Positions 2,399 through 63,316 of a DNA stretch of 64,000 bases are shown here, piece by piece. Both the position numbers and the translations under genes were made by a program. Each line of letters begins with the position of its first letter. The first letter of the stretch is position 1. The notes beneath the pieces were generated by a model. It had not been told where the DNA came from, did no database searches, and saw only the letters and a program-made list of their open reading frames with translations. The stretch lies in the NCBI GenBank assembly GCA_010015805.1, contig ML978128.1, positions 1,116,001 to 1,180,000 of the forward strand, written 5' to 3'. Origin of the DNA: Rhizodiscina lignyota. Taxonomy: Eukaryota.

Positions 2399-4017
2399 TC
2401 AGAACCCATGAAATCTCACGTTCCTAGCTGACTGACCCCTACTATGCATGTGTAACACATCCTCATGCTGCGTCGGACTGCTTGGCGGTCTCGGGCCGCT
2501 CAGACTCCCTTCACGACTCCTACCTGCGGTCTGCGGTCTCGAGAAGTTCGTGTGCGTACTCGGCTGTCTCGAGATGTAGAAAGTGCCTTCCGGTATCCTA
2601 GGCGGCGGTGACGAGCGGCCAGTACCAGCAGTCCTCACTCTCTCCAACTCAGGTATTTCGTCCACTCTCGTTAGATTTGCGGTGCTGCGGGCTTCTTTAT
2701 CGCCAATTCCCCCAACCGTAGGGCCTCTGGGGATGCCCATCGTCTCAGCTGCTTTCGGCGACATTGACCTCAGGGGCACACCTCTTTCTGCGTCCCGATC
2801 AGGACTCTCTTCTTCAAAGAAAGTCATGCTTCTTCTGTTCATTCCTCTGGAATTCCTCTTATTAGAATTACTCGCCTCGGTGTCCTGCGATTCAAGGCCA
2901 TATGGGGAACGTTTGCGCTGCACTTGACCGAGTTGGCCAGATCTTTCCAGATTCGAATTTGATTGGTGATAGTCGCGGGAGTTAAATCCGACGCGTGAGA
3001 GACATGAACGAAAGAGTGGGCGAAGCGTCGCAAGGCTAACTGCAGTGATGCCAATACCCGGCTCGACGCCGGACCAGATGGCGACATCAACAGTCGCAAC
3101 TACTAGAGCGTTAGCTATATCCTCAGACACGACGGAACGAGTAACAGAAGTATGGAGACTGGAGACATACAGAGAAAGTCCTCCGTCTGAGTCAGACTAA
3201 CGAGGTACGGGACCCTCACTATCGTGGCAGTGCTTGCAAGCGCTCCAAGGCCCAGCACAATTGCCACGCCAAATCGCTTTTGGGTGCTCATTTTCAAATT
3301 CCACACGATGAAGATCGGCAATATGCCAAATACCCAATCTGTGACGATGCTGAGCCCACTCTGTGCGTAGGTTGAGTCCGCCGTCATGCCCGGGTTGCAG
3401 TGTCCATGATTCCTGGGATCGAACCGCGTCCAGAAGTACTGGACTGGAATGCATTGGAAGACGGACTGAAAGAAGTAATAGATATTGAAGATGATATTGA
3501 GGTATACGAGTGTCCATATGATCCAGCGGTGTGGCTTTTGAGTGGCGATGCGTAGGAGGAATGCTCCGACGGCGCATTTCAGGACAGCTGTGCACAAGAT
3601 GTAGAAAGTCTCGCACCACCACCATCCCATCAAGGCATTCCGGAGAGCTTTGGGAGTAAGGGCGGTTACGTGTTTTCCAGTGCCCCAGTGTGCCGCATAG
3701 AAGACGAAGCCGCCGAATGTTGTAAACAGGAGCTATGAATCTTAGCACTGTCTCTCCCGAAAAAATATAGCCTTCGCTGAAGGAGTGCTGGAGTCTATCA
3801 GACTGCCTCAAAGGCCGGCAGCTTCTATACCGGGCAGCTGAGCTAGTGGTGATATACTTACCAATGATATGAAGGTTAAGAGGTCATCCAAGCCAGGTGC
3901 CCTTAGTATACGTAACCGCACCCACGCGCGCATTGAAAACGATATCCAGGTCAGGCAAAGAAAAAGAATCATGCTCGCTTTGACCGCAGGCGAACGGTCA
4001 TCGTGTGCTAACGCCAT
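2399..4017 (-). CDS. PTH11-like (fungal rhodopsin-domain) integral membrane protein, no CFEM domain; 3 exons
   Basis: Exons 4017-3862, 3732-3171 and 3099-2399 join in frame through GTAAGT/GTATGT donors and CTAAG/CTAAC branch sites. Motifs: R..VR...GLDD, GTGKH, FQCIPVQYFW, TDWVFGILP..IVWNLKM, WSGVEPGIGITAVSLATLRPL. Confidence 0.9.
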
Positions 4018-59247: not shown

Positions 59248-61333
59248 TTATATATATCCCTGCCGTCTGGCTTTTCGCGTTGCTGCAGAGCTGGTATACA
59301 TACCAGCCTTCGCGGTTCTCGCTCCAAGACGTAGTAGGCCCGATAAATGATGCACACCAGCTAATACTCCGTCTATCACGACAACATCTTCACCCACAGT
59401 GTCCTCTACAGCTTGTTTCAACTTCGTCATGCCTGCGCACCCCAGCGTAAGAGTATCAGCACCATCTGCGACCAGCTGCTCGGCGACGCCGCACATGATA
59501 CCCATCACCTCCTTCTCGCTCCTCGATTCCAATTCTAGCACGCCCAGCTTGCAGCTCCGCACCCCGGCGCAAAAGCTGTCCAATCCGTATGCCTTTACTG
59601 AGTCTTCGAGAGTATATTTGGCACGATTGGACGTCGCGATGATACCGAATCTTCCACCGAGTGTCCGAGCGGCGTACAGACTTGCTTCCATAATTCCGAC
59701 CACAGGCTGCGACAGCTCCTCTCGAAGCATCTTTGTGAGCGTATGATCGCTGTAGCATGCGACCAAGAATGCGTCGTATTCGTGTGCGATGGGTATTATT
59801 GCGCGTGCGGCAGCAGCAGAAGACATGACATCGTCGAATTTGCCTTCGATAGCAGTAGGACCAGGATATGGACAAGTGAAGCCCACGACTTCGACATCGG
59901 GAGGGAGGGTAGGCTCGACCATCTCGACACACTTGTCCGTCATGAATTTAGTCGCATTGGGATTGCAAAGGAGTATTCGAAACGACTTCCTAATTCATTC
60001 TCATATCAGAACAAGCGCTAAATACAAAGAAACTCAGGCACCAGCGAGAAACGGAAACGGCTTACTTGGGCGCGGTTCCGTTTGTTGCTGCGCCATTCGT
60101 CGCATGTCCATTCGTCGCATGTCCATTCACACCATTCGTCGATGTTGTCTCTAGCATTGGTGGCTCGATGACACCGACCTGGGAGGTGATCCTTCCATAA
60201 TGCTCCAATCGTCGATGGCGCTTAAAATCAAACGTTCGCTCCTTTCCAGGCTTGCAGAGGTCTAGGTCGCATTCTGCTACCACTACCTCATCGCCCATTG
60301 TCTTCGTCTCAGCAATGATCTGTCCTTGTGGGTTCGTAATGCAAGAGTTGGCGATCATGAGGAACTTGCCATCGTCATAACCGCATCGTGCAGCACTAAC
60401 GGAAAAGCAGGAGTTGGTGTACGAGTGTCCTTGCATGCTCAGCTTGTGTTGAAATACCGCCATCTCCTCTGCCTCCTTTGGCGCCTGGTCCTTGGGGCTG
60501 CCCCACATATCGGGAGCCCAACCGGTGGTATTGAAGCCGCAGAGAACAACTTCGACTCCTTGAAGGCCTAGGACACGCCAAGCCTCTGCCCATCTACGGT
60601 CATTGCAGACTAGAATCGAACAGCACATATCAGCCGGCAGCTACACTTGTTGAACGCATAGGTCGAGCAAGATTTACCCAAAGCGCTCAGAGTAAGGGGA
60701 AACAAGGCTGAGACGCTTCTGCAGTTGGACGATAAAGACATAGAGCTGGGCCAAAATCGATATAACGCGTATTGCAGGTTACTTACTCATCATTCCGAAT
60801 ATTGGTTGGCCTTCAAAGTCAGGGACGCGGAAGGCTTCAAATCCCAAGTTACCAGGCTTGAAATACCGCTTCTCGAGCTGATTAATAGCATCTGGGTCCG
60901 GGAATGGCTCGTAGTCTCCAGGCAGATGGACTTTCCGGTATTTAGATAGGACCGCACCGGTCTTTGCGTGGTAGTAAATGCAGGTATTGAAGCAGTCTCC
61001 TCCGTCCTTTGCAAGCACCTTCGTCCCATTGACAGCCTCCGCGTACCCTACACAGATGTCGACGCCAAGCTCTCGTGCCTTATCGAAGATTGGTTTCGTG
61101 TCTGGGTTCGTCGTGACATCGCCGTCCTCGAACCATTTCTCCAGCTCCGCCTCTGGGATCAAGAACCGCGGAAAGAATGTTGTGAATGTAACCTCCGGAA
61201 AGCAAGCAACGTCTGCTCCTTGGGCTGCTGCATCTTCGAGCAGCTTGATGAGTCTGTTGAGCGTCTTCGGCCGCGGATCATTAGAATTAACTGCACCAAC
61301 TTGGCAGGCTGCGAGTTTCAGTATTCTCGTCAT
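59248..61333 (-). CDS. Bifunctional N-carbamoyl-D-amino-acid hydrolase (nitrilase superfamily) / hydantoin racemase fusion; 3 exons, ~610 aa
   Basis: Exons 61333-60787, 60609-60066 and 59989-59248 join in frame. Carbamoylase triad motifs FPEVTFTTFFPR, YRKVHLPG, LEKRYFKPG and MICNDRRWAEAWRVLGLQG; a TNG-repeat linker; racemase motifs RILLCNPNAT..MT, AFLVACYSDH, PVVGIMEAS and LGCAGM (both catalytic Cys). Confidence 0.88.
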
Positions 61334-61771: not shown

Positions 61772-63316
61772 ATGGAGGTTGAGCTCCTGGTTAAAAATGC
61801 TACCATAGTAAGAAATCTATTCGCCAGCCCCTAAATCTCCCGAGGCCGGAGCTAACCGTTTCAGGCCACAGCTTCAGATGTCATCCTGGACCAGCAGATC
61901 GCTGTCAAGGATGGAAAGATCTTTCTACTGGGCAAGGATCTCTCGAACATTGTAAACGCAAAATCCACAATTGACGCCTTTGGTGCATATGTGACTCCCG
62001 GTGGTGTCGACTCTCACGTCCATCTCCATCAAGACAACGCTCCGGCAGGGGACAATTTCGAGACAGGAACCCGGTCCGCAATTGCAGGTGGTACGACAAC
62101 AATACTTGCATTCGCATCGCAGAAAAAGACGGATGAAAGTATCATCCCGGTAGTAGAAGAGTACCACCGACGTGCCTCCGGAAATGCGTATTGCGACTAT
62201 GGCTTCCACCTCATCCTGTCCAAACCCAATGCTACCATCTTGGAGAAAGAACTTCCCACTCTGGTCAAGGACGGAGGGATATCCTCAGCAAAACTGTACA
62301 TGACGTATGCTCGACTAAAATTATCGGACTATGAAGTCTTAGACATAATGAACGCAACGAGGAAGTTGGGTATGACTACCATGATCCACGCGGAGAATGG
62401 CGACATGATCGAATTCATTTCCGAGCATCTCGAGAAGCAAAGGATCACTGGACCTTATTCACACGCTTTGAGTCGTCCAGGTATCGTTGAGGATGAGGCA
62501 ACCTACCGAGCGATCTCCCTATCCGAGCTTATGGACATACCACTTCTAATCGTTCACATGTCGCAAAAGACTGCGGCTAGTCATGTTCGCAATGCACAAA
62601 CACGACTCCTTCCCATCCATGCGGAGACGTGTCCGCACTACCTCTACCTTACAAGTACGCGGCTCAAAGATCCTGGCGATTCTGGCTTTGCTGGCGCGAT
62701 GTGCGTGTGCTCTCCTGCTCTACGCGATGATCCGATGGACCTCGAAGCTATGTGGGCGGGCCTGAACAACGGCACTTTCACAACTGTTGCGTCGGACCAT
62801 GCACCTGACAAGTACGACCATCCACAGGGAAAGAAGGCAGGTCTTATTGACGGTAAAGGCCACTTTCGGAAGATCCCTAACGGTTTGCCTGGGCTGGAGA
62901 CGCGCATGCCGCTGCTGTTCAAAGGTGTACTAGATGGCAGGATCAGCATCCAGAAGTTTGTGGAGTTGAATTGCAGCAATCCGGCGAAGCTGTATGGGAT
63001 GAGCGATCGAAAGGGCACCATTGCGCCGGGGATGGATGCAGATCTGGTTATTTGGTATCCGGTCGAGGGGGATAAGAAGATGGGATCGTTCGCGCTGACG
63101 AATGAAATGTTACACCATGACATTGACTATACGCCGTTTGAAGGAACAGAATTTGCGAACTGGCCGAGGTATACGATTTTGAGGGGCAAAATTGTGTGGG
63201 ATCGAGACGGCGTCGGTTTGGCTGGCGTTAAAGGTGATGGACAGTATCTGAAGAGGGGGAGCAGCACGTTAAGCAAGCCTAGAGATATCTGGGTGAATGA
63301 TTGGAGACCTTCGTAA
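61772..63316 (+). CDS. D-hydantoinase / dihydropyrimidinase (cyclic amidohydrolase); 2 exons, ~495 aa
   Basis: Exon 61772-61807 (MEVELLVKNATI), intron 61808-61864, exon 61865-63316. Metal-ligand motifs PGGVDSHVH, SAKLYM, IHAEN, IVHMS and ASDHAP, plus AETCPHYL, PNGLPGLETR and NPAKLYG..KGTIAPGMDAD. Confidence 0.93.

What the first reader, a model, noticed from the sequence alone, without database searches (positions are those of the whole stretch)
59944..60160. Hidden intron at the apparent stop codon fuses carbamoylase to racemase
Seen: the ORF track ends the carbamoylase at ...CCC AAG TAA (60062), but this sequence is also a splice donor, CCCAA|GTAAGC (GT at 60065). A CTGAT branch motif and a TTAG acceptor (59990) follow, defining a 76-nt intron. 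Splicing gives T-A-P-K-K-S-F-R-I-L-L-C-N-P-N-A-T-K-F-M-T, which restores the conserved racemase N-terminal strand (RILLxNPN). That strand has no ATG of its own: an in-frame TGA lies just upstream, and only about 70 bp separate the ORFs, leaving no promoter space. A low-complexity TNGVNGHATNGHATNGAATNG segment sits exactly where an inter-domain linker is expected. Inference: a ~610-aa bifunctional enzyme. Intron retention would cleanly yield a 364-aa stand-alone carbamoylase, so this could act as a splice switch. An in-frame TAA within GTAAG is common by chance, however.
Basis: partly seen in the sequence, partly recalled or inferred. Interest (0 to 1): 0.8.

Follow-up and report, generated by a model that had tools for sequence, protein, structure and literature searches.

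The report
Ordinary intron joins carbamoylase and racemase
A normal 76-base fungal intron sits in the linker of one gene that encodes a two-domain enzyme (D-carbamoylase plus hydantoin racemase), an architecture already annotated in many fungi, so the finding is correct but ordinary.

Summary
On the minus strand, the carbamoylase frame ends AAG-TAA (stop 60064-60062). GTAAGC starts at 60065, CTGAT lies at 60009-60005 and TTAG ends at 59990. Removing these 76 nt gives one open 1833-nt CDS of 610 aa. The racemase's first strand (RILLCNPN) lies upstream of its first ATG and just after an in-frame TGA.

The fusion reading is well supported by comparison:
- 118 of 120 listed longer homologues carry both CN_hydrolase and Asp_Glu_race.
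- The spliced product aligns end to end at 60-68% identity with 14 of them.
- 6 of 6 full-length related metagenomic loci encode the whole two-domain protein as one uninterrupted ORF, with no intron.

No RNA data exist for this organism.

The "splice switch" idea has no support. A stop at a phase-2 GTAAG donor is automatic, and the six intron-less loci cannot have this switch.

The gene sits head to head with a D-hydantoinase gene. Together they form a plausible hydantoin-to-D-amino-acid module.

Verdict: a real, correctly read intron in a member of an annotated but biochemically undescribed fungal family. Low interest.

The parts
60787..61333 (-). Exon 1 (ATG 61333-61331): N-terminal half of the N-carbamoyl-D-amino-acid hydrolase (CN_hydrolase) domain, containing the FPE and YRKVHLPG motifs
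   Evidence: PF00795, 3.3e-15. PDB 6LCG, N-carbamoyl-D-amino-acid hydrolase, 7.2e-31.
60610..60786 (-). Intron 1: 177 nt, GTAAGT...CTGAT...TAG, phase 1. Its removal restores MM-I-CNDRRW, which holds the catalytic Cys
   Evidence: The junction matches the consensus GMMICNDRRW of 12 homologues.
60066..60609 (-). Exon 2: C-terminal half of the carbamoylase domain. 60066-60169 codes the variable, low-complexity inter-domain linker
   Evidence: (PF00795, 3.3e-16). PDB 8I99, 8e-35; the solved chain ends at the residues aligned with window ...RITSQVGV. One search shows the linker columns are variable.
60093..60128 (.). Perfect 15-nt tandem repeat (2.4 copies) that codes the repeated HATNG motif of the linker
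59990..60065 (-). Intron 2: 76 nt, phase 2. Donor GTAAGC 60065-60060, which overlaps the apparent TAA stop at 60064-60062. Branch CTGAT 60009-60005. Acceptor TTAG 59993-59990
59248..59989 (-). Exon 3: last linker residues plus the complete Asp/Glu/hydantoin racemase domain (stop TAA 59250-59248). The first strand RILLCNPN is coded at 59979-59956, upstream of the first ATG (59943-59941)
   Evidence: (PF01177, 4.5e-55, profile 1-210 of 211). PDB 5LFD 1.3e-30 and 3QVJ 1.6e-24. Chain residues 1-2 align with window residues 2-4 of exon 3.
61772..63316 (+). Divergently transcribed neighbour, D-hydantoinase/dihydropyrimidinase. Proposed exon 1 61772-61807, 57-nt intron 61808-61864 (GTAAGA..CTAAC..CAG), exon 2 61865-63316
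   Evidence: TIGR02033 D-hydantoinase, 412.5 bits against a cutoff of 393.25. Amidohydro_1. Exon 1 and the intron are read from the sequence and are inferred, not tested by homology.

Best explanation
Window 61333-59248 (minus strand) is one three-exon fungal gene. Splicing of two ordinary introns (177 nt and 76 nt) gives a 610-aa protein. It has an N-terminal N-carbamoyl-D-amino-acid hydrolase domain of the nitrilase superfamily, a ~38-residue low-complexity linker, and a C-terminal hydantoin/allantoin-type racemase domain. The second intron lies inside the linker. Its phase-2 GTAAGC donor overlaps what an ORF scan reads as the carbamoylase stop.

Proposed function (inferred):
- The racemase domain interconverts the D and L forms of a 5-substituted hydantoin.
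- The D-hydantoinase encoded head to head at 61772-63316 opens the D-hydantoin ring to an N-carbamoyl-D-amino acid.
- The carbamoylase domain hydrolyses that product to the D-amino acid, ammonia and CO2. This would give access to the nitrogen of racemic hydantoins.

Shown here: the gene structure signals, the reading-frame restoration, the domain identities, the conservation of catalytic motifs, and the existence of the same fusion as uninterrupted ORFs in relatives.

Inferred: that splicing occurs in this organism, the substrates, and the pathway.
For: (1): joining the three exons gives 1833 nt and 610 aa with no internal stop. The product aligns over 583-602 columns at 60.3-68.4% identity with 14 homologues of 590-624 aa. 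The linker is variable and K-x-x-R-[IV]-L-[LI]-x-N-P-N is conserved directly after the junction.
(2): searching only longer proteins with the racemase part gave 216 hits at E<=1e-3. Of the 120 listed, 118 carry both PF01177 and PF00795 (442-663 aa). Every source name is fungal by my knowledge of the names.
(3): of 31 metagenomic loci, 6 cover the full length (L001, L002, L004, L005, L006, L011). All 6 encode both domains in one uninterrupted frame with 0 internal stops. This evidence does not depend on any splice prediction. L001 also carries a partial Ras-family match nearby, so it is probably eukaryotic genomic DNA.
(4): the racemase profile starts 12 residues upstream of the first Met; residues 1-2 of the solved racemase chains align with that upstream strand.
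(5): this is the only consensus-quality in-frame GT..AG pair. 507 of 200,000 shuffled spacers reproduce such an intron.
(6): solved D-carbamoylases match at 1.7e-73 (homologue P0005) and at 7e-31 and 8e-35 (window exons). FPE, YRKxHLPG and CNDRRW align.
(7): both racemase cysteines (in ACYSDH and LGCAGM) align with the Cys of 3QVJ's ACFGDPG and LGCGGM.
(8): the neighbour passes the D-hydantoinase equivalog cutoff.
Against: No transcript evidence exists for this organism. The single public run that holds the stretch is DNA and may be the assembly's own source.

Stand-alone racemases of this family do exist in fungi. 33 of 120 near-length hits have their own Met within 25 residues of the NPN strand. 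Loci L008 and L009 encode ~290-305-aa stand-alone forms at 59-62% identity. Fusion is therefore not obligatory in the family.

Most of the annotated fused fungal proteins are themselves gene predictions.

The hydantoinase is not adjacent in any of the 14 fungal-like metagenomic loci. tblastn hit only 1 of 31 loci, the bacterial-like L016, although flanks were at most 3 kb. The three-enzyme pathway is therefore weaker than the fusion itself.

The substrate is unknown. The racemase domain scores better against an allantoin racemase (1.3e-30) than against the putative hydantoin racemase (1.6e-24).
Confidence: 0.9

Rival explanations
1. There are two independent genes. The carbamoylase stops at TAA 60062 (364 aa). 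A separate racemase is translated from ATG 59943 (231 aa) or from a non-AUG codon just after the TGA.
For: This is what a plain ORF scan gives. 25 of 120 near-length database entries likewise start at the homologous internal Met, the closest at 88% identity.
Against: The 231-aa form lacks the first strand, RILLCNPN. That strand is position 1 of the Pfam profile and residues 1-2 of the solved chains. Only 67 nt separate the stop from the reopened frame. The Met is an internal residue in most of the fused homologues shown. The 25 truncated entries come from ORF callers on contigs and are better explained by the same intron. A full set of in-frame intron signals arises in only 0.25% of shuffled spacers.
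Confidence: 0.04
2. The racemase is a stand-alone gene. Its transcript starts inside the carbamoylase gene, or in an unrecognised 5' exon that supplies an ATG and splices to the acceptor at 59990.
For: Stand-alone fungal racemases with short or long N-terminal extensions exist: 33 of 120 hits, plus L008 and L009.
Against: No in-frame ATG lies between the TGA (59997-59995) and the RILL codons. The carbamoylase tail and exon 3 align co-linearly with the linker of the fused homologues. A promoter inside the upstream coding region is an extra assumption.
Confidence: 0.03
3. The gene is fused, and in addition intron 2 is retained in a regulated way. That yields a 364-aa stand-alone carbamoylase under some conditions.
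For: Retention would end the protein just after a complete carbamoylase domain plus linker. Solved carbamoylases end at the residues aligned with ...ITSQVGV. The intron lies exactly in the linker.
Against: The stop is an automatic result of a phase-2 GTAAG donor. 6 of 6 full-length related loci have no intron here, so those six relatives cannot have this switch. By general knowledge of nonsense-mediated decay, a retained-intron mRNA carrying a stop followed by ~800 nt would be expected to be degraded (inference). No RNA data exist to test it.
Confidence: 0.07

Closest known systems
Annotated fungal 'carbon-nitrogen hydrolase' proteins of ~600-625 aa with CN_hydrolase + Asp_Glu_race. Examples: P0004 (Stemphylium lycopersici, 611 aa), P0050 (Bipolaris maydis, 612 aa), P0034 (Gloeophyllum trabeum, 607 aa)
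   Same: They share the domain order, the length, a variable linker, and the conserved K-x-x-RILLxNPN after the linker. Identity is 60-68% over the whole length.
   Different: The window's linker has its own HATNG repeat. Here the linker is interrupted by a 76-nt intron, which six full-length metagenomic relatives lack. The best fused hit is only 76% identical in the racemase part, so no close orthologue is annotated as fused.
Bacterial N-carbamoyl-D-amino-acid hydrolase (D-carbamoylase; PDB 6LED, 6LCG, 8I99, 1ERZ, 1FO6)
   Same: The whole ~305-residue enzyme aligns with exons 1 and 2. The motifs FPE, YRKxHLPG and CNDRRW are conserved. These hold the Glu-Lys-Cys triad and the Arg pair; their roles are recalled, not tested here.
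   Different: The bacterial enzymes are stand-alone ~304-316-aa proteins. Here a linker and a racemase follow the C-terminus.
Bacterial allantoin racemase (PDB 5LFD) and putative hydantoin racemase (PDB 3QVJ)
   Same: The full-length alignment starts from chain residue 1-2. Both Cys positions of 3QVJ are conserved in the window.
   Different: The bacterial proteins are stand-alone ~242-245-aa proteins with their own start codon. The window's domain has none.
Bacterial carbamoylase-racemase gene pairs in Alphaproteobacteria. Examples: L048 (Gluconobacter kanchanaburiensis), L087 (Gluconacetobacter azotocaptans), and the MAG loci L073, L102 and L105
   Same: The order is the same: the carbamoylase is immediately followed by the racemase on the same strand. 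Gaps range from a 4-nt overlap (L073) and 9 nt (L105) to about 100 nt.
   Different: These are always separate ORFs: 0 of the 80 loci examined are fused. L105 looked fused to tblastn but has an in-frame TAG. The carbamoylase part is 46-50% identical to the fungal query P0005 (39% over the L105 read-through alignment) and the racemase part 28-33% identical.

Membership tests
Spliceosomal intron (fungal type) | GT..AG ends with a GTRAGY-like donor, a CTRAY branch 10-35 nt before a YAG acceptor, and a length of about 50-200 nt | tested here: met
   GTAAGC, CTGAT 16 nt before the acceptor G, TAG, 76 nt. Intron 1 of the same gene uses GTAAGT, CTGAT and TAG. The consensus forms are recalled.
Spliceosomal intron (fungal type) | Removal restores one open frame that is co-linear with homologues | tested here: met
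   610 aa with 0 internal stops, aligned end to end with 14 homologues.
Spliceosomal intron (fungal type) | Spliced junction seen in RNA | not testable with these tools
   No RNA run is listed. The one run that holds the stretch is DNA.
Fungal CN_hydrolase + Asp_Glu_race fusion proteins | Both Pfam domains in one polypeptide, carbamoylase first | tested here: met
   Window pieces: PF00795 on exons 1 and 2, PF01177 on exon 3. 118 of 120 listed longer homologues have both. The uninterrupted L001 ORF has both.
N-carbamoyl-D-amino-acid hydrolase (nitrilase superfamily) | Close full-length similarity to solved D-carbamoylases rather than to other nitrilase branches | tested here: met
   D-carbamoylases score 1.7e-73 to 4e-65. 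N-carbamoylputrescine amidase scores 2e-16 and nitrilase-like proteins 1e-8 or weaker. No NCBIfam equivalog cutoff is reached.
N-carbamoyl-D-amino-acid hydrolase (nitrilase superfamily) | Glu-Lys-Cys catalytic triad and CNDRRW motif | tested here: met
   FPE, YRKVHLPG and (I)CNDRRW align with the same motifs of 6LCG and 8I99. The assignment of catalytic roles is recalled.
N-carbamoyl-D-amino-acid hydrolase (nitrilase superfamily) | Hydrolysis of N-carbamoyl-D-amino acids | not testable with these tools
   Needs an enzyme assay.
Asp/Glu/hydantoin racemase (PF01177), hydantoin/allantoin racemase branch | Full-length domain match above the gathering score | tested here: met
   187.1 bits against a cutoff of 31, profile 1-210 of 211.
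Asp/Glu/hydantoin racemase (PF01177), hydantoin/allantoin racemase branch | Two catalytic cysteines | tested here: met
   The window's ACYSDH and LGCAGM align with 3QVJ's ACFGDPG and LGCGGM. The catalytic role is recalled.
Asp/Glu/hydantoin racemase (PF01177), hydantoin/allantoin racemase branch | Substrate: 5-substituted hydantoin versus allantoin | not testable with these tools
   Best PDB match is allantoin racemase at 1.3e-30; the putative hydantoin racemase scores 1.6e-24. This does not decide the substrate.
Regulated intron-retention switch | Condition-dependent retained fraction and a stable short protein | not testable with these tools
   No RNA data. The intron is absent from 6 of 6 full-length related loci.

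The most novel reading that the evidence does not exclude
In this lineage an intron was placed, or kept, exactly in the inter-domain linker. Its retention, which stops translation at once, could then be used to tune the ratio of stand-alone D-carbamoylase to carbamoylase-racemase fusion, for example according to nitrogen source. Together with the head-to-head D-hydantoinase, this would be a self-contained eukaryotic hydantoin-to-D-amino-acid module with splice-level control.
Probability: 0.06. Interest if true: 0.5.

Novelty: new member of a known kind. Interest (0 to 1): 0.2.

Why it matters
The practical value is for annotation. An ORF-based reading splits this gene into a complete carbamoylase and a racemase missing its first strand. 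The same truncated racemase 'proteins' are present in public collections: 25 of 120 near-length hits.

The natural fusion of a D-carbamoylase with a hydantoin-type racemase next to a D-hydantoinase has modest biotechnological interest. These are the three enzymes of the industrial hydantoinase process, described as such in the review PMC7431475, of which I saw only the search listing, the abstract start and two passages. Five full-text searches found no paper describing a natural fungal fusion.

It changes no general concept.

Tried and rejected
RNA evidence. The look-up of sequencing runs listed no RNA holder. The single run X1, laid, is a DNA contig that covers the whole stretch, introns included, and may be the assembly's own source. 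It says nothing about splicing.

Own genome. None is held (error), so paralogues and genome-wide intron consensus could not be examined.

Earlier notes of this scan. There was nothing by place or by sequence.

Hydantoinase synteny. tblastn of the window's hydantoinase against the 31 metagenomic loci hit only L016, which is bacterial-like. Pfam on 11 flanking ORFs of the fungal-like loci gave only a Ras fragment and DUF3533. The two-gene cluster could therefore not be shown to be conserved.

Bacterial fusion. L105 first looked like a single fused ORF, with one tblastn alignment covering residues 1-562. Direct reading showed an in-frame TAG at 3949-3951 and a GTG start 9 nt later. It was rejected: 0 of 80 bacterial loci are fused. 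Only the best 80 of 596 confirmed matches were kept by the tool, so rarer fused forms are not excluded.

Alternative splice pairs. Three other in-frame GT..AG pairs exist (donors 60178, 60172 and 60130 joined to acceptor AAG, first exon base 59985). They have non-consensus donors and a poor acceptor.

Literature. Five searches found no description of a natural fungal fusion. Subscription journals are not covered. No supplementary files were consulted.

Full report
**What is in the sequence**

The region is eukaryotic (fungal-type) DNA read on the minus strand. A CN_hydrolase frame runs from ATG 61333. It is interrupted once by a 177-nt intron (60786-60610, GTAAGT...CTGAT...TAG). Removing that intron restores the motif MM-I-CNDRRW.

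The frame ends at CCC AAG TAA, with the stop at 60064-60062. This is where ORF listing closes the ORF.

The G of AAG and the TAA are the first four bases of GTAAGC (60065-60060). CTGAT lies at 60009-60005 and TTAG at 59993-59990. The interval 60065-59990 is 76 nt.

Downstream, a second frame opens right after an in-frame TGA (59997-59995). Before its first ATG (59943) it codes K-S-F-R-I-L-L-C-N-P-N-A-T-K-F.

**Is it more than chance?**

- Joining the exons by coordinates in a script gives 1833 nt and 610 aa with no internal stop.
- Four in-frame GT..AG pairs could bridge the two frames. Only 60065/59989 has a consensus donor and a YAG acceptor.
- The intron has stops in all three frames. Its GC is 0.42, against 0.53-0.54 in the flanking exons.
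- Only 507 of 200,000 mononucleotide shuffles of the 82-nt spacer produce a GTAAGY donor at the stop, a CTRAY branch 8-35 nt before a YAG, the correct phase and no stop. The figure is 3164 of 200,000 if the donor is granted.
- Pfam Asp_Glu_race matches the exon-3 translation from residue 5, at profile position 1 of 211 (4.5e-55).
- The solved racemase chains align from their residues 1-2 with this pre-ATG strand.

The racemase therefore cannot be complete without an upstream coding segment.

**Comparative evidence for the fusion**

I searched only longer proteins with the racemase part. This returned 216 hits at E<=1e-3. Of the 120 listed, 118 carry both PF01177 and PF00795 and are 442-663 aa long. 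The two exceptions are 674-aa and 677-aa Aureobasidium proteins with PF01177 only. All source names are fungal: Alternaria, Bipolaris, Aspergillus, Colletotrichum, Hortaea, Gloeophyllum and others.

The spliced window product aligns with 14 of these over 583-602 columns at 60.3-68.4% identity. There is a variable linker, and the motif K-x-x-R-[IV]-L-[LI]-x-N-P-N is conserved immediately after the junction.

Those database proteins are mostly gene predictions, so I looked for DNA. A metagenome scan gave 31 loci. Six of them cover the full length (L001, L002, L004, L005, L006, L011). In all six the entire two-domain protein is one uninterrupted frame with no internal stop. L001 also has a partial Ras-family match on the same contig, so it is probably eukaryotic genomic DNA, and its ORF carries both Pfam domains. 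This evidence does not depend on any splice model.

**Evidence on the other side**

No RNA data exist for this organism. The one public run that holds the stretch is DNA, covers the introns, and may be the assembly's own source.

Stand-alone racemases of this family exist in fungi:
- 33 of 120 near-length hits have their own Met within 25 residues of the NPN strand.
- L008 and L009 encode ~290-305-aa forms with an N-terminal extension.

A further 25 of the 120 near-length hits start exactly at the Met homologous to 59943 and lack the first strand. The closest is 88% identical. I read these as the same ORF-caller truncation in relatives that also have an interruption here. That is an inference, because their DNA could not be fetched.

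**What the domains are**

N-terminal domain:
- The homologue P0005 matches solved N-carbamoyl-D-amino-acid hydrolases at 1.7e-73 to 4e-65. Other nitrilase-superfamily branches score far weaker.
- The window's exons 1 and 2 match these structures at 7e-31 and 8e-35.
- FPE, YRKxHLPG and CNDRRW are aligned. Their roles as triad and substrate-binding residues are recalled, not tested.
- The solved chains end at the residues aligned with window ...RITSQVGV. This leaves about 38 residues of linker, which includes a perfect 15-nt tandem repeat.

C-terminal domain:
- It matches allantoin racemase 5LFD (1.3e-30) and a putative hydantoin racemase 3QVJ (1.6e-24).
- Both cysteines of 3QVJ are conserved.

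Neighbour:
- The divergent gene at 61772-63316 passes the D-hydantoinase/dihydropyrimidinase equivalog cutoff (412.5 against 393.25 bits).
- Its first exon and 57-nt intron are my reading.

**Mechanism**

The best-supported reading (confidence 0.9) is a single gene for a bifunctional D-carbamoylase-racemase.

The inferred pathway has three steps. The racemase equilibrates D- and L-5-substituted hydantoins. The neighbour's hydantoinase opens the D form. The carbamoylase domain then releases the D-amino acid, ammonia and CO2.

The pathway is weaker than the fusion itself. The hydantoinase was not found next to the fused gene in the fungal-like metagenomic loci, and the substrates are untested.

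**The splice switch**

Retention would indeed give a 364-aa protein ending after an intact carbamoylase domain. Three points argue against a switch:
- A phase-2 intron with a GTAAG donor always reads G-TAA when retained, so the stop is not a designed feature.
- The six intron-less relatives show that a retention switch cannot operate in those relatives.
- A retained-intron mRNA with a long 3' region would be expected to be a target of nonsense-mediated decay (general knowledge, inference).

I give the switch about 0.06-0.07.

**Comparison with what is known**

In bacteria the two enzymes are separate proteins. I examined the best 80 of 596 bacterial loci that encode a close carbamoylase homologue. 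These are 46-50% identical, mainly Acetobacteraceae and Bradyrhizobium.
- 8 of the 80 have a racemase homologue within 3 kb.
- In 5 of those the racemase lies immediately downstream on the same strand, in the same order as the fungal domains. Spacing ranges from a 4-nt overlap (L073) and 9 nt (L105) to about 100 nt.
- None of the 80 is fused. L105 looked fused to tblastn but has an in-frame TAG.

The fungal protein therefore looks like a fusion of such a gene pair. Origin by transfer is speculation.

Five full-text searches found no paper describing a natural fungal carbamoylase-racemase fusion. Of PMC7431475 I saw the listing and two passages, which mention only engineered fusion proteins in general.

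**Verdict**

The fusion is supported by strong comparative evidence but not yet by RNA. The splice switch is unsupported.

The feature is an ordinary intron in a further member of an already annotated, biochemically undescribed fungal two-domain family. Interest 0.2.

Noticed in passing
window 61772-63316 (+): A D-hydantoinase/dihydropyrimidinase gene is transcribed divergently, about 440 bp from the fused gene's ATG. It has a short first exon (61772-61807) and a 57-nt intron (GTAAGA..CTAAC..CAG). With the fused gene it completes the three activities of a hydantoin-to-D-amino-acid route. It was not found adjacent in the fungal-like metagenomic loci.
   Followed up: partly
window 60093-60128: A perfect 15-nt tandem repeat (2.4 copies) codes the HATNG repeats of the linker. 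The linker appears to have grown recently by slippage.
   Followed up: partly
proteins P0124-P0243: 25 of 120 near-length database entries begin at the internal Met homologous to window 59943 and lack the first racemase strand. These are probably ORF-caller truncations of intron-containing fused genes in relatives. The closest is 88% identical to the window.
   Followed up: partly
L008:1804-2682 and L009:2752-3741: These loci encode stand-alone fungal-like racemases. The open frames are 293 and 330 codons, ~290 and ~305 aa from the first Met, at 59-62% identity. Each has its own Met and a 40-60-residue N-terminal extension before the RILLCNPN strand. No carbamoylase homologue lies in the upstream flank held.
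   Followed up: partly
L073:3939-3942; L105:3949-3963: In these bacterial loci the carbamoylase and racemase genes abut in the same order as the fungal domains. L073 has a 4-nt overlap. L105 has an in-frame TAG followed 9 nt later by a GTG start, and tblastn read through that stop, making L105 look fused.
   Followed up: yes
proteins P0034, P0065: Fused homologues named from basidiomycetes (Gloeophyllum, Neolentinus) are 72% and 70% identical to the window's racemase part. That is as close as many ascomycete ones, so transfer between fungal lineages is possible.
   Followed up: no
PDB chain 5LFD_A, alignment: The solved allantoin racemase chain has Gly (AGYGEH) where the window (ACYSDH) and 3QVJ (ACFGDPG) have the first cysteine. 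I did not check whether this is a mutant construct or a natural difference.
   Followed up: no
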